UHGV virus genome: UHGV-0326727
Length of the DNA: 64,000 nucleotides
DNA from: a virus
Strand: one strand, 5' to 3'
Shown: piece by piece, positions 3,771 through 63,221 of the stretch
How positions within the stretch are numbered: position 1 is the first letter of the stretch
Layout of the letters: the number at the start of each line of letters is the position of its first letter
Program-made: the position numbers and the translations under genes
Notes under the pieces: generated by a model
What the model was told of the DNA's origin: nothing
The model's input: the letters and a program-made list of their open reading frames with translations, nothing else
Databases searched by the model: none

Positions 3771-4786
<1,016 letters not shown>

Positions 4787-5890
4787 TTATTCATAATCTC
4801 GTATAACGAGGCCAACAGGGAACTGTAAAGAACCTTTACGAGTCATCTTCTGGAACTGAACCGTCAAAGGTTTCCCGATAAACTCTTCAGGATGTTCAGC
4901 AAGATACTGTTTCTTCTCATGAGTAGTCTTCCATGAGACATCTACAAAGACGTTAGGAAGAGTCTCTACAACGAACTTGCCATGACCACGCTTATCAGTC
5001 TTTACACCAGTCACTTTAAACTCTTCAGTGTGCATCTTCTTGTGCTTAATCAAGAAGTATGAACGGTGACAACACTCATAGAAGGAGTCTTCAGAGATTG
5101 AACGGTACATTGCACCTTCAAACTTGGCTTCAACCCACTTATCATGAGCTTCATCAAACTCTTCCCAAGAATTTACACGACGAGACTTAACAGGAACAAC
5201 TTTACAGCCGTCTCTAAAGTCATTCAATGGTGAAGTCTCAATAATATCTCTACGCTCAGGCCACGTCTTAGTACTGTCACAGATATCGTACCAGTAAAAC
5301 TTGAGCAAGTGTCTGTCAGGATTGTCTTCATTTTTAATCATGGAGACGATATCTTCTAAGTCCCACCCATGAGCATAAATCTCTCCATCAAATTCATCAA
5401 CATCTTTGTGGAGCCTTAACATTGCCATAATGTCAGGTATTAGTTCAGTAGGGATTTTATAAACAGTATTCTCACGAGAGTATGCTGTAAATACACTACC
5501 AATGCTTAAGTGCCTCGAAATCCTACAACGGACACCATCAAGCTTCGGTTGAGCATCAGCAGGGAATTTCAAATACTTTGCATGACTAACCTTTGCAGCA
5601 TCATGAGCAAGCTGCACACCTACCTTCTCAGTATTCTGTGCAGACTCTTTTGTGTAAGCATAGCCTTTGCGGTCAACTTGCTTTTTATACTTAGCAGCAA
5701 CTTCAAAGAGAGCTTGCTGTTCAGCGTTACGCTCATTCTTTTTACCGATGTTTTTCGGTTCTGCTGTGTACTCTTCAAACATCATCTTGCCATTTTCTTT
5801 ACCGTAGGTTGTAATAACTTTGTCACCTACAGCAACGCATGACCAGACGTTAAAAGAGCCGTCTTTATTTTGTTTGTACAGTATTGTCAT
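4787..5890 (-). CDS. ATP-dependent DNA ligase (T7-like size)
   Basis: Nucleotidyltransferase motif I KLDGVR (PKLDGVRC), motif IV-like EGAMYRS, motif V-like LIKHKK; start set at MTILYKQ with GAGGA RBS. Confidence 0.65.
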   Translation of the reverse strand: MTILYKQNKDGSFNVWSCVAVGDKVITTYGKENGKMMFEEYTAEPKNIGKKNERNAEQQALFEVAAKYKKQVDRKGYAYTKESAQNTEKVGVQLAHDAAKVSHAKYLKFPADAQPKLDGVRCRISRHLSIGSVFTAYSRENTVYKIPTELIPDIMAMLRLHKDVDEFDGEIYAHGWDLEDIVSMIKNEDNPDRHLLKFYWYDICDSTKTWPERRDIIETSPLNDFRDGCKVVPVKSRRVNSWEEFDEAHDKWVEAKFEGAMYRSISEDSFYECCHRSYFLIKHKKMHTEEFKVTGVKTDKRGHGKFVVETLPNVFVDVSWKTTHEKKQYLAEHPEEFIGKPLTVQFQKMTRKGSLQFPVGLVIRDYE

Positions 5891-5891
5891 T

Positions 5892-6083
5892 TTATTCCTC
5901 TGAGTGATACCAAGTATTGCAAGCATTACATGCGTAAAGCTCTAAGTCATTTTTATCTGGTTTATGAAAACAGTTTGCTCCGCAGTGGCAACGAAACGGC
6001 TTTCCACCAACTGTCAGGATGAAGGATTGAACCTTTCCATCAGGAGTTCGTACAGCATTTTTATGCTTGTCTTCTTTGTTCAT
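5892..6083 (-). CDS. small Zn-binding protein
   Basis: 63 aa; CHCGANC...CNAC cysteine/histidine cluster. Confidence 0.35.
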   Translation of the reverse strand: MNKEDKHKNAVRTPDGKVQSFILTVGGKPFRCHCGANCFHKPDKNDLELYACNACNTWYHSEE

Positions 6084-6286
6084 TTTCTCTTACCACCAAT
6101 CTCTACGTCGATAACTTGAACATCACCAGCAACATCAAACTTATGAATGATGCTTCCCACAGTGTAAGTCCAACCCTCGATGCGAACCAACTCACCTTCT
6201 CGTGGGACGATTGGATTACGTTGAGCTACGGTTGTAGTGGAGTGAACAACATCATAACAATAGATATAGTTTACTAGGACTTCCAT
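6080..6286 (-). CDS. hypothetical protein
   Basis: Start moved to internal Met (MEVLVNY) with GAGG RBS so it no longer overlaps the lipoprotein gene. Confidence 0.3.
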   Translation of the reverse strand: MEVLVNYIYCYDVVHSTTTVAQRNPIVPREGELVRIEGWTYTVGSIIHKFDVAGDVQVIDVEIGGKRK

Positions 6287-6296
6287 CTTGAAAACC

Positions 6297-6533
6297 TCAC
6301 TCAATAACAGTAGTGTGTGATTGACCATTTTTGCCATAGCTATAAGATGTTGTTGTTTGAGAGTTTGGACATCTGACAACAACAATATCTCTGCTTATGG
6401 CATCACCATGTAACTTATAGACCTTACAATCTTGCATTTCTGGTGGGAGGCTATAAGAAGCATTCTTATCTTCATAAGAAGGGTTGCAGCCAGTTAGAAA
6501 AATAACACCAAGTGTAATTACTGCTTTCCACAT
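6297..6533 (-). CDS. small lipoprotein
   Basis: MWKAVITLGVIFLTGCNP: signal peptide with lipobox LTGC. Confidence 0.45.
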   Translation of the reverse strand: MWKAVITLGVIFLTGCNPSYEDKNASYSLPPEMQDCKVYKLHGDAISRDIVVVRCPNSQTTTSYSYGKNGQSHTTVIE

Positions 6534-6721
6534 AACACATCTCCTGTTTTATTGTTCACGATGTTCTACTTCTCTGTATGTACGCCGGTAGTTTATGATG
6601 AGTTGTGCTAATTCGTTGCTTTTAACATCTGAACGTAGCAGTTGCCAATCAAAACCTTTACCGACTCTCCCATATAAACTAAATAATTTTACTTTGCGTT
6701 TCATTTTGGTGTTCCCAATAC

Positions 6722-6949
6722 TCAGAGGTCAATACTGATACGTTCACCCTTAAGGACTCCTGTGCGGTCTCTTGCAATCTTACCGTCAACAATAAGGATA
6801 TGCGCAGACTTTAAAGATTCACTATTAAAACCTTTTACGAACTTACTAGGCATCACCACAATAAGCATCTCTTGAATCAACTCTGGAGTGTAGCAATTAT
6901 CGTGAAGTTGCTGAATAACGTCTGCAAGTGTCATTTTTGATGTCTCCAA
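6722..6949 (-). CDS. small protein, paralog of 7137-7355
   Basis: Shared C-terminal block GKIARDRTGVLKGERISIDL vs GKIAKDKTGYLKGERVNIESLL. Confidence 0.45.
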   Translation of the reverse strand: METSKMTLADVIQQLHDNCYTPELIQEMLIVVMPSKFVKGFNSESLKSAHILIVDGKIARDRTGVLKGERISIDL

Positions 6950-7140
6950 TATTCAATATCAATAAGTTCTTGTGCAATGCTTTTCAGATTACCTTTCAAG
7001 AAAACCTTCTCAGAACCTGAAAGAGATGAATTGTCAATTAGCCTGTTCATTCTCTCAAACAACTTCTGCTTACGGTTCTTGATAGTTTCCTTTGAAGCAC
7101 CTTTCATCATTGCTGCATGGGTTCTTCCACGGTGGCTCAT
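6931..7140 (-). CDS. small basic protein
   Basis: 69 aa ORF between the two paralogs; Lys/Arg rich. Confidence 0.3.
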   Translation of the reverse strand: MSHRGRTHAAMMKGASKETIKNRKQKLFERMNRLIDNSSLSGSEKVFLKGNLKSIAQELIDIEYWRHQK

Positions 7141-7355
7141 AGTAAACTCTCAATATTTACACGCTCACCTTTTAAGTAGCCTGTCTTATCTTTTGCGATT
7201 TTACCTCCAGCAATAAAGATATCTACTCTACGTAGAACTTCAGGGTTTACCTTCAAATTCCTACAGCTACTGCAAAGAACAATAAACATCCCTTCAATCT
7301 CTTTTTGAGAATAACCTGCACATTGCAACTGAACTTCAATCTCTGAAAGTGTCAT
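7137..7355 (-). CDS. small protein, paralog of 6722-6949
   Basis: See 6722-6949. Confidence 0.45.
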   Translation of the reverse strand: MTLSEIEVQLQCAGYSQKEIEGMFIVLCSSCRNLKVNPEVLRRVDIFIAGGKIAKDKTGYLKGERVNIESLL

Positions 7356-7406
7356 ATGTCCTCCTATACAAGATATTGTATAAGGTACTCTTCCATGAGC
7401 ACCTTG

Positions 7407-7931
7407 TCAAGATAGTTTTGCGAACTCTCCGTGTAGTTTTATAGCAGCTTCACAGTAAGCTTTATGGGCTTCTTCTGGTGTGTCAAACATACCAAGATGA
7501 TAGTTTTTACCCTGTAAACGAATCATTGCTCTAAACCTTTTACTTATTTTCTGTACACCTTTTGGCAATCCAGATAGGGACTTTCTTGACCGATTACAAG
7601 AGTTTTGTGAGGCTGTACAAACCCTCAAATTCAAGTATCTATTATCCCAACCATCTCCATTCTTATGGTCAACCTGTAAGGTTTTATCAGGTAGATACCC
7701 ATCCATGTATAGTATTACTAAACGGTTAGCTTGGTAGCCTTTACCATCAAGCAACAACTGAACAGACTTGTGACCATCTGTATTTATCCTATAATTACCT
7801 GCCTTTTTACCTCCAAAACGAGAGTTGAAGTTCCTATTACCTCGTGATATTGGCTCTCTAAACTTCCAAGTAAAGACCCCTGTTTCGGGGTCGTAGTCCA
7901 GTAGTTCCTTAAGACGAATTTCTGTAATCAT
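7407..7931 (-). CDS. HNH homing endonuclease with AP2-type DNA-binding domain
   Basis: HNH motif VDHKNGDGWDNRYLNLRVCT; C-terminal AP2-like FRAMIRLQGKNYHLGMFDTPEEAHKAYCEAA; free-standing 10 nt downstream of the polymerase stop; start set at in-frame ATG 7929-7931. Confidence 0.7.
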   Translation of the reverse strand: MITEIRLKELLDYDPETGVFTWKFREPISRGNRNFNSRFGGKKAGNYRINTDGHKSVQLLLDGKGYQANRLVILYMDGYLPDKTLQVDHKNGDGWDNRYLNLRVCTASQNSCNRSRKSLSGLPKGVQKISKRFRAMIRLQGKNYHLGMFDTPEEAHKAYCEAAIKLHGEFAKLS

Positions 7932-7941
7932 TTCAATACCA

Positions 7942-10671
7942 TCAATGCACTTCCAACCAGCTCTTACCAACCTTACCAGTGCCAGTTACAAGCGTCTCTC
8001 TCTTCAAACCCAAATTCTGAGATGCCTGACCATACATCCAGTCAGTTATAGCTTTAACCTCTTGAGTCATACTTTCTGGGCATTCCCAACTGTTTTCATC
8101 GTGGTATGCCAGCAAAAGTCTAGCACCGATTGCTGGTTTTCGTCCATTTAATTTTGTCAACCCTTCTTCACATGCCCTTCTACAAGCAAGGTTAATTGCC
8201 TCATTTTGAATCTGAGCCTCTGAACCCATCAAAAGATAGTTCAACAGTTTGTGTGGAGATTTACACCACAACCAAGCTCCAGCAACCCTTACAAAACCCC
8301 CTTTAGAGATTGCAGCAGTCTTACCAAACACCTCTTCAAGTGCCTTTTTAGTCGCTTTGTAGTCAGCTTCCAAGTCATCTAGCAGCTTCTTAATCTTAGG
8401 CAAACGGATAAAGTAAGTCTGTTTAGTCAGTGCACCTTCCTGAGTAGTTGCAGCTTTAATTGTCTTAGCAAACTTCTCATCACCTGCACCAAACAGTAGT
8501 GCATAGATGCCATTCTTAGCTTTCTTACGACCCTTGCTAATCTCATGAAGAAGGTTCTCATCCTGAGTAGCTCGACAAGTCAAGATATCCTGCTCATCAT
8601 TCAAGCTAAAGTAAATACTATTCAGTGTGTGTGCATCAGTCCCTGAATAGACAACGTAAAGGTCATTCTCAGAGTCATAACGCAGATACTTGTCAACTTC
8701 TGGGTTAAGGTACTCATCAAAATGTTTGCAGTAATAGCGTCCGTCTTCTTGACGAATAAATTCAATCTCTTCTTTACCTTGCGTTACCGCTTTGGTGAAG
8801 TCTTTGTCACCCATGAAGTTACAAAGAAGAACTAGCTGGGCTGAGTTCATGTCTACAGAGACAACGTTAGTACCTTCTTCACAAATCCACACTGCCCTCA
8901 TTGGTTCCCCATAGACAGCAGCACCAGACGGTACGTTTACAATACCATATTGTGTCATACGTCCAGTTGAAGTACCAAATACCATTGCACCAGCACTAAG
9001 GCGACCATCTGGACGAATCTGGTTCAACCAACCTTTTTCATCATCCTTTGAGTTCTCAATAGTTCTGCGTCTGTGCATCAAAGTATAGTACTTAGCAATC
9101 TTCTGTCCAAGCTCACCTTCAATCGTATCATAAGATGATTCAGTAAGCTTTGGTGAAGTCCTAATCAGACAAGGTTCAAGTAAATCTGTGTACTTCTTAA
9201 CAGACCAGTTATGCTCAATGTACTGGACACCTTCATGTTCAACATAACTCAAACCACACCGTTCAACCATCTCCTGCCACTTAGGATGCTTGGTAATCAT
9301 CTTTTTGTTGTCTTTGAAACGACAAACCTTAACAGGACGACCATCTGAGTCTTTCTTGTAGTTCCAGTCATCTGGAATCCAACCAACTGATTTCAAGTAG
9401 TCTTTAACAACTGCTACCTGAGTCATACGAGAAACTTCGAACTCAATTGGTGTATATGGTGCATCAATCAAACCTGTGTAGCGACTTGACTCAAGCTCAA
9501 AGTGGTTAACAACATGGCTGTTATAGTACTTCACAGTCTTAACTGTTTTTACTGGCTTCCAGTCTTTGCACTTCTTACCAATCTTTGCATTCAACTCATT
9601 GCAAATTGCACGAGCATCCTTCATTGCTACAAAGCCTTCATTGTACTCTTCACCAGTTACAGAGTTGGTTGGTGTATAGCAATTCCGCTTTTCAATGTTA
9701 AAAATCTTTGTAGTTGGCTTACCAAATGGCTTGATTTCATATGTCTGCATTTCACCATTACGTACCTGCTGACGATACTTTGTCTTAGGGTACTTGGTAA
9801 TTCTCTTCAGTCCATCTGCATGACCGAATGCTTCAACATACTCATTCCAAGCTTTTGCAAATTCTTCTCCAGTGACTTTACCTTTGGTCTTAATAGTTGG
9901 TGGAAGGTGTGGTTCAACTTCTGAAGCAAGCTCATTAGTCAACTTGTCAAGTTCCTTTGCATGGAACTCCATAAGCTCTTTATCAGCTTTCCAACCATTG
10001 ATAGCCTGTTGACTCATCCAGAAAGATGTTTCTTTAGCTCGCATATAGGTTTCATAAGTATCTATGCCACACTTCTTCAGCTTGAGATATTCATTATCCA
10101 GTGCACGTTTAGTTTTGGCGTTAATACGGATATCTTCTACAACACGAGTGAAGATTTCTGCATTCCACACACCCCAATGTTCAATCTCTGGTTTACGTAC
10201 ACCAACACGAGCACCCCATGCTGCCAAGCCATGAGCACCTTTATAACCTTTTGGAGTTGGTCTATCCATCCACTGAACACGAGACTGGATAAGAGAATCC
10301 TGAAAGAAATTACTCCACGGCTTACACTTTGGATTATCAAAGTTCCACAAATCAGGTGCAATGTGATTGAAAACCCACCAGTCATACCCCAGACCATTAT
10401 GGATGCAGAGTCGTTTTGCCTTTAACGCAAACTCAATGCCTTCACGTAAGCCACCCTTAATGTACTTGGTATACTTGTGACCGAGGATAGGTTCATCTGT
10501 AAAGACCCATACAGGCGGCTCTTCATCGTCAGATTTATAGTCTGCGAAAGCCATTACGTGCACTTTAGTGAACTCAAGGAGTAAACCATCAGTTTCTGTA
10601 TCACCAACTAAATGTAAGTTTTTAAAATCTACGTTTTCCATTTTTACTCCCTCTAAAATCATTAACCTCAT
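7942..10671 (-). CDS. DNA polymerase, family A (Pol I-like) with 3'-5' exonuclease domain
   Basis: 909 aa; exo I motif GDTETDGL; motif B-like RKKAKNGIYALLFGAG; motif C YHDE; C-terminus ends ...SWLEVH (terminal His typical of family A). Confidence 0.85.
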   Translation of the reverse strand: MRLMILEGVKMENVDFKNLHLVGDTETDGLLLEFTKVHVMAFADYKSDDEEPPVWVFTDEPILGHKYTKYIKGGLREGIEFALKAKRLCIHNGLGYDWWVFNHIAPDLWNFDNPKCKPWSNFFQDSLIQSRVQWMDRPTPKGYKGAHGLAAWGARVGVRKPEIEHWGVWNAEIFTRVVEDIRINAKTKRALDNEYLKLKKCGIDTYETYMRAKETSFWMSQQAINGWKADKELMEFHAKELDKLTNELASEVEPHLPPTIKTKGKVTGEEFAKAWNEYVEAFGHADGLKRITKYPKTKYRQQVRNGEMQTYEIKPFGKPTTKIFNIEKRNCYTPTNSVTGEEYNEGFVAMKDARAICNELNAKIGKKCKDWKPVKTVKTVKYYNSHVVNHFELESSRYTGLIDAPYTPIEFEVSRMTQVAVVKDYLKSVGWIPDDWNYKKDSDGRPVKVCRFKDNKKMITKHPKWQEMVERCGLSYVEHEGVQYIEHNWSVKKYTDLLEPCLIRTSPKLTESSYDTIEGELGQKIAKYYTLMHRRRTIENSKDDEKGWLNQIRPDGRLSAGAMVFGTSTGRMTQYGIVNVPSGAAVYGEPMRAVWICEEGTNVVSVDMNSAQLVLLCNFMGDKDFTKAVTQGKEEIEFIRQEDGRYYCKHFDEYLNPEVDKYLRYDSENDLYVVYSGTDAHTLNSIYFSLNDEQDILTCRATQDENLLHEISKGRKKAKNGIYALLFGAGDEKFAKTIKAATTQEGALTKQTYFIRLPKIKKLLDDLEADYKATKKALEEVFGKTAAISKGGFVRVAGAWLWCKSPHKLLNYLLMGSEAQIQNEAINLACRRACEEGLTKLNGRKPAIGARLLLAYHDENSWECPESMTQEVKAITDWMYGQASQNLGLKRETLVTGTGKVGKSWLEVH

Positions 10672-10701
10672 ACATTACTGCAAAAAATTATAAAAAGCAA
10701 G

Positions 10702-10730
10702 TTGACAATGTGCTTGACAAGGTGTTAATC
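10702..10730 (+). promoter_or_regulatory. sigma70-like promoter in divergent intergenic region
   Basis: A-rich upstream, TTGACA (10702-10707), 17-bp spacer containing a second TTGACAAGGTG, -10 TTAATC. Confidence 0.4.
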
Positions 10731-10898
10731 TTTGCGAAGTGGGTTTTTACTTAAAAGGTTACTTAACAGTTTAACTATACAGATACTTTAAAACTCTTAA
10801 AAGATTATTTAATAGCTTTTAAAAAGCTTTAAAGTATAACGTATAGAATACGTTAAGATAAAAGATTAAAACTTAATAGTTACTTAAAAGAGGCTTAC

Positions 10899-11321
10899 AT
10901 GCAGAAAATGTTTGTTCACCCAGACATAGCTGACTTTGTTAGAGCTTTGCAGAAGTTGGAAGAACTTGACATTGCTGCTCAACGGGAATATGCTCACCAT
11001 CACAGGAGAATGGTTGATATACAACATGAAATAGAGTTGTCTGAAAACTATGAAGATGACTTAAAATGCTCTGTGTTTGAGCATATGAAAGATGTTGCTA
11101 CAGCGAGACGTAAAGCTAAAGACACAGTTGCTTTACTAGATTCTCTTAAAAAGAGGTTGCAAAGTGGTACAGACCTGTGTAATCTAGCGTCACTGATTAA
11201 CGATGTTGAAACTTCTTGGGATAGACATTACTATCCACGTTCTGAAAAGACACTTGACTTTTCTTCATCAGAAAACTTAAAATGTTCTAGAAAGAAACTT
11301 AACCAACTGAGAGAGAAATAA
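10899..11321 (+). CDS. hypothetical protein
   Basis: 140 aa ORF, first gene of plus-strand operon. Confidence 0.4.
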   Translation: MQKMFVHPDIADFVRALQKLEELDIAAQREYAHHHRRMVDIQHEIELSENYEDDLKCSVFEHMKDVATARRKAKDTVALLDSLKKRLQSGTDLCNLASLINDVETSWDRHYYPRSEKTLDFSSSENLKCSRKKLNQLREK

Positions 11322-11322
11322 T

Positions 11323-12135
11323 ATGAATACTACTGTAGACCAGATGCTTGAAGAAAAAGGTATTGACGAAGCATTCTTAATCAATGCCGTAGAAAGCATG
11401 GCTATGATTCTTCGTGGAAACAACTACACAGAACAGTTTATGCCTGCAAGCTATAACTTGCCTAAAGACAAGTCTGATAACGGTGCTTTTGCAGAACAGG
11501 TTAATATGATGCTGTGTGATAAAACACTTGCTTTAGCATCTATCGTTGTAGGTGTTGATGCTCTTGCAGAGTTCATTTTCTATGAGATGCAGAAAAATGA
11601 CTATATTGCCATGACCTCTGAAGAAAAAGACTCGCTACTGCTCTTAGGTTATGATGAGCTAGTTGACCTGTTAATTTCGTCAACAAGTGCTGTTATGGCT
11701 GCTCTTGAGAAGCGAATGGAAGAGAAGCTGTCACGATATGAAAAACTTGATTGGGGTGTAGAAGAGTTAAACCCACGAATCAAAGAGATTATCCAGCAAA
11801 CTAAAGACTCTTTAGCAGAAGCTGTGAAAGATGATTCTGTAGCTGATGTAGAACCACTACAGGTGAAGGTTGCTCTGATGATTCCAGCTATCTCTACAAT
11901 GATGAATATCGTTGCACTAATCCAACTTTCTCAGATGTTGGGTGTAACCATTGAGTTCGTTGAGGAGATGACTGGTGGTGTCAGTATGCAAGCAATCAAT
12001 GATGTTTTGGTAAACATTGGCGCTTCAATCATTGAAGAGAAGCTACGTATCAACTTCGGTGATGATTTTGTGAAGCAAATCTCAGCTATTGCTGAAAAAG
12101 AGCACTCACAAATTACTAGTGACCAACTGCACTAA
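11323..12135 (+). CDS. hypothetical protein
   Basis: 270 aa ORF, 1-nt gap from upstream gene. Confidence 0.4.
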   Translation: MNTTVDQMLEEKGIDEAFLINAVESMAMILRGNNYTEQFMPASYNLPKDKSDNGAFAEQVNMMLCDKTLALASIVVGVDALAEFIFYEMQKNDYIAMTSEEKDSLLLLGYDELVDLLISSTSAVMAALEKRMEEKLSRYEKLDWGVEELNPRIKEIIQQTKDSLAEAVKDDSVADVEPLQVKVALMIPAISTMMNIVALIQLSQMLGVTIEFVEEMTGGVSMQAINDVLVNIGASIIEEKLRINFGDDFVKQISAIAEKEHSQITSDQLH

Positions 12136-63047: not shown

Positions 63048-63120
63048 GTGGCCTTATCATAAATGGTAATGACCCATGCTGTGAACATGGTCTATACGGG
63101 TTCAAATCCCGTAGGTCACC
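63048..63120 (+). tRNA. tRNA-His (anticodon GTG)
   Basis: Acceptor gtggcct/aggtcac, D-stem tcat/atga, anticodon stem ccatg/catgg perfect with loop ctGTGaa, discriminator C; CCA encoded. Confidence 0.75.
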
Positions 63121-63129
63121 CCAATTTAT

Positions 63130-63202
63130 AGTCCAAGTAGCTTATATGGTTAAAGCGCGTGTCTGAAAAACATGAGAAGAGGGTTCAAATCCCACTGGAC
63201 TA
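63130..63202 (+). tRNA. tRNA-Phe (anticodon GAA), slightly irregular acceptor/T junction
   Basis: D-stem gctt/aagc, anticodon stem cgtgt/acatg with loop ctGAAaa, T-loop TTCAAAT; acceptor agtccaa/ctggact with one unpaired base; CCA encoded. Confidence 0.6.
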
Positions 63203-63221
63203 CCAATTTCAAAGGTGCTTA

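What the first reader, a model, noticed from the sequence alone, without database searches (positions are those of the whole stretch)
6722..7931. HNH-AP2 homing endonuclease directly downstream of the polymerase, next to a pair of paralogous small genes
A free-standing HNH-AP2 endonuclease gene begins 10 nt after the family-A polymerase stop, a typical landing site for mobile endonucleases. Just downstream, two 72-75 aa paralogs (conserved GKIA(K/R)D(K/R)TG.LKGER motif) flank a small basic ORF, which suggests local duplication.
Basis: partly seen in the sequence, partly recalled or inferred. Interest (0 to 1): 0.4.

Follow-up and report, generated by a model that had tools for sequence, protein, structure and literature searches.

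The report
Mobile HNH-AP2 endonuclease gene after polymerase
A Felix O1-like phage carries an ordinary selfish "homing" nuclease gene just after its DNA polymerase gene, and comparison with relatives shows the gene arrived together with about 240 bases of neighbouring polymerase sequence; the two small look-alike genes next to it are old, optional accessory genes rather than a fresh duplication.

Summary
All genes lie on the minus strand of a Felixounavirus genome: family-A polymerase (7942-10671), a 10-nt spacer, a 174-aa HNH-AP2 endonuclease (7407-7931), then three ATGA-coupled small genes: paralog A (7137-7355), a basic ORF (6931-7140) and paralog B (6722-6934, 70 aa rather than 75).

The homing reading passes its own refutation test. 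The site is empty in 8 of 21 compared loci, and apparently in about 21 of 51 sampled GenBank relatives. Elsewhere it holds one of four HNH-AP2 allele families that are 37-55% identical. Against phage SP3 the window is base-for-base identical for 1,948 nt downstream and 327 nt upstream. In between, a 771-nt patch (the HNH gene plus the last 240 nt of pol, 26% diverged) matches HNH-bearing phages. That is the footprint expected of intronless homing with co-conversion. Nuclease activity and the target site remain untested.

The paralogs are homologous (42% identity, PHROG 4230) but form two old clades. Most relatives carry only one copy, so a recent local duplication is not supported. Their function is unknown, with no fold match.

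The kind is already known and close relatives are annotated as such. Interest is low to moderate.

The parts
7407..7931 (-). Free-standing HNH-AP2 endonuclease gene (174 aa), allele 'type I'. HNH_3 domain at about 7599-7733 (residues 67-111). AP2 domain at about 7428-7550 (residues 128-168).
7932..7941 (-). 10-nt spacer TGGTATTGAA between the pol stop and the HNH ATG. The left junction shares GTATTGA with empty sites.
7942..8181 (-). Last 240 nt of the polymerase gene. This is the co-converted flank and the inferred location of the endonuclease target in HNH-less genomes.
   Evidence: 64 of 240 mismatches to SP3, set between exact-identity blocks 8182-8508 and 5463-7410. The same stretch is 95-96% identical to HNH-bearing loci L002, L007, L009 and L014. 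Nucleotide diversity peaks here: 0.16-0.185, against 0.02-0.06 in the 5' part of pol.
7942..10671 (-). Family-A DNA polymerase gene (909 aa), intact in the window.
   Evidence: Pfam DNA_pol_A and PHROG 17.
7356..7481 (-). Block shared at 90-100% nt identity by all four HNH allele families. It covers the last ~75 nt of the HNH ORF (TPEEAHKAYCEAAIKLHGEFAKLS) plus the 51-nt spacer 7356-7406 (TTGACA overlapping the stop, an AT hairpin, AGGAGG).
   Evidence: Inter-allele nt identity jumps abruptly from 35-57% to 90-100%. The spacer alone, but not the ORF end, is present in empty sites.
7137..7355 (-). Paralog A (72 aa, PHROG 4230). Optional ORF-precise cassette.
   Evidence: 100% identical to SP3. 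Absent from XTG1 and from every type-I HNH Felixounavirus record.
6931..7140 (-). Basic ORF (69 aa, pI 10.3, PHROG 5180). Start overlaps the A stop (ATGA).
   Evidence: 100% aa identity in 10 of 20 loci.
6722..6934 (-). Paralog B (70 aa from ATG 6934, PHROG 4230). Start overlaps the basic ORF stop (ATGA).

Best explanation
The 7407-7931 gene is a free-standing HNH-AP2 homing endonuclease gene of a Felixounavirus, working by 'intronless homing'.

Proposed mechanism:
1. No sigma-70-like promoter of its own was found, so it is probably transcribed by read-through from the polymerase gene.
2. It makes an I-HmuI-like HNH nuclease fused to an AP2 DNA-binding domain.
3. In a mixed infection with a related phage that lacks the gene, the enzyme nicks or cuts that phage's DNA inside the 3' end of its polymerase gene. 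The target is inferred to lie within the region equivalent to 7942-8181. The densest fixed differences between empty and occupied alleles are at 8167-8181.
4. The break is resected and repaired by copying the HNH-bearing genome. This transfers the HNH gene together with the intervening polymerase sequence (co-conversion).
5. The carrier's own polymerase 3' end is protected by its many, mostly synonymous, substitutions.

The window records such an event. An SP3-like backbone carrying paralog A has received a 771-834 nt patch (HNH plus 240 nt of pol) from a type-I donor.

Shown: domain architecture, intact catalytic motif, presence/absence polymorphism, four alleles at one site, the patch and its boundaries, and linkage of the pol haplotype to site occupancy.
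Inferred: nuclease activity, target position, direction of transfer, and mode of expression.

The neighbouring A-basic-B genes are translationally coupled small accessory genes of unknown function. They are not part of the mobile unit, since their presence does not track HNH presence.
For: **Architecture.** establish the HNH and AP2 domains. The D-H...N...N motif is conserved in a 30-sequence alignment.

**Free-standing.** The ORF starts 10 nt after the pol stop, and there is no Rfam intron.

**Polymorphism.** 13 of 21 loci are occupied and 8 are empty. About 30 occupied and 21 empty in an evenly spaced GenBank sample. The type-I allele also occurs in Mooglevirus KPS64 at 88.5% aa identity, while other Moogleviruses are empty.

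**Patch.** Identity to SP3 is exact over 5463-7410 and 8182-8508. Between these blocks the window has 771 nt where SP3 has 246 nt, with 26% divergence in the pol part. The patch is 95% identical to type-I loci.

**Linkage.** The pol 3' haplotype CRRMIDEGLM... occurs in 7 of 8 empty loci, and other haplotypes in 12 of 13 occupied loci. Fisher p=5e-4, not corrected for shared ancestry.

**Diversity.** Nucleotide diversity peaks next to the site.

**Backbone context.** Every other Felixounavirus record with a type-I HNH lacks paralog A, and every A-bearing Felixounavirus record listed is HNH-less. The window is therefore a recombinant.

**Literature.** Free-standing phage endonucleases cut hundreds of bp or more from their own gene and co-convert the interval (PMC2988022). 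HNH-AP2 is a recognised HEG class in T4-like phages (PMC2993671).
Against: - No biochemical or genetic test exists for any allele at this site. I found none in the paper library.
- The donor is not in the databases. The patch is 5-7% diverged from every known type-I copy, so 'recent' applies only to the flanks.
- Felix-like genomes are mosaic in general, so some recombination patches occur without endonucleases.
- Two loci break the haplotype rule. L008 is empty but has an occupied-type pol end. L018 is occupied but has an empty-type pol end.
- The direction, gain in the window or loss in SP3, cannot be polarised from two sequences alone.
- No clear Shine-Dalgarno sequence or promoter precedes the HNH ATG.
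Confidence: 0.8

Rival explanations
1. The HNH-AP2 gene is an inactive or domesticated relic. The 771-nt patch is ordinary homologous-recombination mosaicism that happens to include it, with no endonuclease drive.
For: Mosaicism is pervasive. Identity between the window and SP3 also drops at 4683-4990 and around 9000-9400. No own promoter or strong RBS was found. The exceptions L008 and L018 weaken the haplotype link.
Against: The ORF and catalytic residues are intact in all 13 occupied loci and in four diverged allele families. The patch's right edge coincides with the end of the heterology to within 15 nt, and its left edge lies 240-290 nt inside pol. This is the asymmetric geometry expected of intronless homing. 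Diversity peaks flank both this site and a second HEG site in pol.
Confidence: 0.12
2. The endonuclease mainly serves the phage rather than itself. It could damage co-infecting competitors (marker exclusion as a weapon), or promote recombination or amplification of the adjacent accessory genes, as reported for T-even SegB.
For: The gene sits at the head of a hypervariable block of small accessory ORFs with ORF-precise indels (A, B and others). SegB-driven amplification of anti-defence loci is documented (PMC13096335, listed).
Against: There is no correlation between HNH presence or type and the A/B content of the downstream block. The conversion tract in the window runs into pol, not into the accessory genes, and downstream identity to SP3 starts at the HNH stop.
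Confidence: 0.06
3. One reading: paralogs A and B arose by a local tandem duplication in this phage lineage.
For: They are homologous (E=2e-16), flank one gene, and share the same start MTL(S/A)(E/D) and the same ATGA coupling.
Against: Identity is only 42%. A-type and B-type form separate clades with near-identical counterparts in other genomes. 14 of 20 loci have B only and 4 of 20 have A only, among them the record identified as Mooglevirus relative Moogle. A is removed by an ORF-precise indel in XTG1. The family has only 11 representative clusters among 1.84 billion proteins, which suggests an old family specific to these Felix O1-like phages.
Confidence: 0.1

Closest known systems
HNH homing endonuclease genes annotated downstream of pol in other Felixounavirus and Mooglevirus genomes (for example XTG1 ANZ52137.1, KPS64 gp36, Felix O1 ORF218)
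   Same: Same site, same HNH_3 plus AP2 architecture. 96% aa identity to XTG1 and 98% to a Logan contig protein. Felix O1 was reported to carry six HNH endonuclease genes (PMC3185647).
   Different: Felix O1 itself carries a different allele family (type III, 41% identity). In the records searched, the window is the only Felixounavirus combining a type-I allele with paralog A. None of these genes has been tested experimentally, as far as the library shows.
I-HmuI (Bacillus phage SPO1 intron-encoded HNH nicking endonuclease, PDB 1u3e)
   Different: I-HmuI is intron-encoded and uses a different C-terminal DNA-binding region (my recollection of the published structure, not tested here). This protein is free-standing and has an AP2 domain. 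Whether it nicks or makes double-strand breaks is unknown.
Free-standing T4 endonucleases SegF, SegG and MobE (intronless homing, marker exclusion)
   Same: Stand-alone gene between or next to conserved genes. Cleavage site expected at a distance inside a neighbouring essential gene. Co-conversion of the interval (PMC2988022 and PMC2790892). The window's 240-nt co-converted pol flank matches this geometry.
   Different: Seg proteins are GIY-YIG enzymes. MobE is an HNH enzyme but has no AP2 domain. The phage family differs. Here mobility is inferred from comparative footprints, not from crosses.
HNH-AP2 class of putative HEGs in T4-related phages (RB49, JSE, RB43, RB16)
   Same: Same two-domain architecture, listed as a HEG class (PMC2993671).
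   Different: Different phage group and insertion sites. No direct sequence comparison was made here.
Replacement of one HEG by another at the same locus (segH and hef replacing mobC and mobE in T4-related phages)
   Same: Several unrelated or diverged endonuclease genes occupy one locus in related phages (title cited in PMC2988022). Here four HNH-AP2 allele families occupy one site.
   Different: All four alleles here belong to one family. They share an identical 3' end of ~75 nt with a sharp identity boundary. I did not find this feature described in the papers read.

Membership tests
HNH endonuclease (Pfam HNH_3 PF13392, I-HmuI-like beta-beta-alpha-metal fold) | Profile match above the curated threshold | tested here: met
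   45.5 bits against a cutoff of 24.8, E=5.6e-12. PADLOC HEase E=6.8e-9.
HNH endonuclease (Pfam HNH_3 PF13392, I-HmuI-like beta-beta-alpha-metal fold) | Catalytic D-H ... N ... N residues present | tested here: met
   D88, H89, N101 and N110 align with the VDHKDG...NLR...N segment of I-HmuI. They are invariant or nearly so in 30 homologues. The residue roles are taken from my knowledge of I-HmuI.
HNH endonuclease (Pfam HNH_3 PF13392, I-HmuI-like beta-beta-alpha-metal fold) | Fold similarity to a solved HNH homing endonuclease | tested here: met
HNH endonuclease (Pfam HNH_3 PF13392, I-HmuI-like beta-beta-alpha-metal fold) | Metal-dependent DNA nicking or cleavage | not testable with these tools
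   Needs purified protein.
AP2/ERF DNA-binding domain (PF00847) | Profile match above the curated threshold | tested here: not met
   26.8 bits against a cutoff of 33.3 (E=6.3e-6). Many close homologues do carry a precomputed PF00847 hit.
AP2/ERF DNA-binding domain (PF00847) | Three-stranded sheet plus C-terminal helix fold matching solved AP2 domains | tested here: met
Free-standing homing endonuclease gene (intronless homing) | Own ORF outside any intron or intein | tested here: met
   The ATG is 10 nt after the pol stop. No Rfam family in 4000-12000. Pol is intact at 909 aa.
Free-standing homing endonuclease gene (intronless homing) | Presence/absence polymorphism at the same site among close relatives | tested here: met
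   8 of 21 loci empty, with clean junctions. About 21 of 51 sampled GenBank records empty, judged from span.
Free-standing homing endonuclease gene (intronless homing) | Co-conversion footprint in flanking DNA | tested here: met
   A 771-nt patch inside sequence identical to SP3. The 240-nt pol flank matches HNH-bearing genomes. Diversity peaks here.
Free-standing homing endonuclease gene (intronless homing) | Cleaves the HEG-less allele, while the carrier allele is resistant | not testable with these tools
   Only a candidate region (7942-8181 equivalent) can be proposed.
Free-standing homing endonuclease gene (intronless homing) | Super-Mendelian inheritance in mixed infection | not testable with these tools
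   Needs phage crosses.
PHROG 4230 (small proteins of Felix O1-like phages, unknown function): paralogs A and B | Full-length profile match | tested here: met
   E=7.4e-37 for A and 2e-41 for B. The family is restricted: 30 word-indexed homologues and 11 representative clusters.
Recent tandem duplication (A and B) | The copies are each other's closest relatives, and both are present in the lineage | tested here: not met
   A and B are 42% identical. Each is 70-100% identical to its positional counterparts elsewhere. Most loci carry one copy only.

The most novel reading that the evidence does not exclude
The pol-downstream site may be an arena where four diverged HNH-AP2 alleles (37-55% aa identity) repeatedly displace one another as well as invade empty sites. 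All four share an identical ~75-nt 3' ORF end plus a 51-nt spacer, with a knife-edge identity boundary. That shared block and the pol 3' end would serve as fixed homology arms for cassette replacement. Each allele might then target the pol haplotypes linked to the others. This would give a natural system of competing gene drives inside an essential polymerase gene.
Probability: 0.25. Interest if true: 0.5.

Novelty: already known. Interest (0 to 1): 0.25.

Why it matters
The finding gives a clean natural example of intronless homing outside the T4 group. A near-isogenic pair, the window and phage SP3, differs by the endonuclease gene plus a 240-nt co-conversion tract in an essential polymerase gene. 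This predicts where the enzyme cuts and offers a ready experimental pair for crosses.

It also matters for phage-therapy cocktails of Felix O1-like phages, since mixed infections are expected to homogenise this locus. Beyond that it is a routine annotation. Close relatives already carry the label 'HNH homing endonuclease', and the small paralogs remain of unknown function.

Full report
**Context.** Megablast of 6400-8400 and of 1-25000 places the window in Felixounavirus, the Felix O1-like myoviruses of Escherichia, Salmonella and Shigella. The best overall relative is about 96.6% identical. All genes from 3.3 to 10.7 kb are on the minus strand.

**Checking the observation.**
- The family-A polymerase ORF is 7942-10671 (909 aa; Pfam DNA_pol_A, PHROG 17).
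- Its TGA stop is followed by TGGTATTGAA (10 nt) and then an ATG at 7931. This opens a 174-aa ORF ending at 7407.
- That ORF scores Pfam HNH_3 E=5.6e-12 and PHROG 99 E=1.7e-59. AP2 scores E=6.3e-6, below Pfam's cutoff.
- The PDB sequence search finds I-HmuI (E=5.6e-5, residues 43-126) and plant AP2/ERF domains only weakly.
- The D-H...N...N motif is intact and conserved. The HNH-AP2 call is therefore sound.
- Downstream lie paralog A (7137-7355), the basic ORF (6931-7140, pI 10.3) and paralog B. A and B are 42% identical (E=2e-16) and both belong to PHROG 4230.
- The three genes are joined by ATGA stop/start overlaps. B therefore most likely starts at 6934 (70 aa), as annotated in relatives, not at the TTG at 6949.

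**Presence or absence of the HNH gene.** I compared the window with 2 GenBank loci and 18 IMG/VR loci found through the basic ORF.
- The interval between the pol stop and the basic ORF holds an HNH-AP2 gene in 13 of 21 sequences and none in 8.
- An evenly spaced sample of 60 GenBank hits to 6931-8500, classified by the length of the matched span, gives about 30 occupied and 21 empty Felix-like records. This classification is an inference from spans, not from annotation.
- Occupied sites hold four allele families that are 37-55% identical to one another. Type I: window, XTG1, L007, L009. Type II: L003, L014, L015, L018. Type III: L010, L012, L016 and Felix O1 ORF218. Type IV: L013, L017.
- Type I also occurs in the Mooglevirus KPS64 (88.5% aa), while other Moogleviruses appear empty, judged from match spans.

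**Conversion footprint.**
- Against Salmonella phage SP3_SHan-2021, which lacks the HNH gene, the window is exactly identical over 5463-7410 (1,948 nt) and 8182-8508 (327 nt).
- Between these blocks the window has 771 nt where SP3 has 246 nt. The window's 771 nt are the 525-nt HNH ORF, the spacer and the last 240 nt of pol. That pol stretch differs from SP3 at 64 positions (26%) but in only 13 of 80 codons.
- The same 240 nt are 95-96% identical to HNH-bearing loci.
- The right edge of the patch coincides with the HNH stop. XTG1-type sequences already differ from the window at 7395, so the crossover lies within about 15 nt.
- The left edge lies between 8181 and about 8230.
- Every other type-I Felixounavirus record lacks paralog A through an ORF-precise deletion, including the 98%-identical Logan contig L022. 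Every A-bearing Felixounavirus record listed is HNH-less.
- The window is thus an A-bearing, SP3-like backbone that received HNH plus a pol flank. Less simply, SP3 could be the reciprocal loss.

**Population-level signals.**
- The pol 3' haplotype CRRMIDEGLM... occurs in 7 of 8 empty loci, and other haplotypes in 12 of 13 occupied loci. Fisher p=5e-4, not corrected for phylogeny. L008 and L018 are exceptions.
- Nucleotide diversity rises from 0.02-0.06 in the 5' part of pol to 0.16-0.185 in its last 300 nt.
- This matches published behaviour of free-standing phage endonucleases. They cut at a distance inside a neighbouring gene and co-convert the interval (PMC2988022).

**Shared 3' end of the alleles.** All four families share the last ~75 nt of the ORF and the 51-nt spacer at 90-100% nucleotide identity, synonymous sites included. 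Identity steps up abruptly from 35-57%. Empty sites have the spacer but not the ORF end. I read this as a fixed right-hand homology arm for allele replacement. A DNA-level function, such as control of the downstream genes, is not excluded. The 'promoter' annotated there in AYO145A has non-canonical spacing.

**The small genes.**
- A-type and B-type proteins form two clades.
- 14 of 20 loci have B only, and 4 have A only. Two of those four match the GenBank records identified as Mooglevirus relatives Sf13 and Moogle. Only SP3, L004 and the window have both.
- L018 carries a third, intermediate lineage in the A slot.
- The family is confined to Felix O1-like phages: 30 homologues in the word-indexed search and 11 representative clusters in 1.84 billion proteins.
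- The AF2 model is confident (pLDDT 89.9), but no solved or viral structure gives a functional lead.
- A/B content shows no link to HNH occupancy.
- I conclude they are old, dispensable, translationally coupled accessory genes. A recent local duplication is not supported.

**Comparison with the known.** Multiple HNH endonuclease genes in Felix O1 were reported in 2010 (PMC3185647). The same gene is annotated as 'HNH homing endonuclease' in XTG1, JK55, ekra and others. HNH-AP2 is a listed HEG class in T4-related phages (PMC2993671). Nothing here departs from the known kind. What this analysis adds is the near-isogenic footprint and the shared-arm pattern. No Rfam family, and hence no intron, is present.

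**Verdict.** Activity and target are untested. The duplication interpretation is weakened. Novelty: already known. Interest: 0.25.

Noticed in passing
L003 and L008, position equivalent to window ~8498/8499 (557 nt before the pol stop): Two relatives carry an 801-804 nt insertion inside pol. It encodes a 160-183 aa Endo VII-type nuclease (…[24 protein letters not shown]…) and splits the polymerase gene into two ORFs. Nucleotide diversity is raised on both sides of that site as well. The window's pol is intact. Compare F-CphI, an Endo VII-motif homing endonuclease (PMC6083498).
   Followed up: partly
window 7356-7481 (-): The last ~75 nt of the HNH ORF plus the 51-nt spacer are 90-100% identical at nucleotide level among four otherwise 35-57% identical allele families. 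The boundary is abrupt.
   Followed up: partly
window 7365-7410 (-): The spacer contains TTGACA overlapping the HNH stop codon. It also has a perfect 7-bp AT hairpin, TATACAA-TATC-TTGTATA, abutting the AGGAGG of paralog A. AYO145A annotates a promoter here, but the hexamer spacing is 22 nt.
   Followed up: partly
window 7410-7412 (-): The window's HNH ends with Ser codon TCT. All other alleles and type-I copies use AGT, a multi-base synonymous switch right at the patch edge.
   Followed up: no
window 7875-7892 (-): A terminator-like hairpin, GACCCCGAAACAGGGGTC followed by TTTACTT, lies inside the 5' end of the HNH ORF and encodes the conserved DPETGVF motif. The count of such sites is not above chance (2 found, 1.0 expected).
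   Followed up: no
window 6931-7140 (-): The basic 69-aa ORF (PHROG 5180) is 100% identical at protein level in 10 of 20 related loci while all its neighbours vary. It is the most conserved gene in this stretch, and its function is unknown.
   Followed up: partly
window 6549-6704 (-) and the interval down to the ligase gene (4787-5926): The block of small ORFs between pol and ligase is highly variable among relatives. The 51-aa ORF is missing in several loci, and other ORFs are replaced in Moogle-like loci.
   Followed up: no
window 58867-63205 (+): A cluster of 24 tRNA genes, as is usual for Felix O1-like phages.
   Followed up: no
L023 (Shigella phage vB_SflM_004) 1056-2917: An unannotated 1.8-kb stretch, not next to pol, contains fragmented matches to the HNH gene. 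The same phage has a 46-aa fragment of paralog A. This could be decay or sequencing frameshifts.
   Followed up: no
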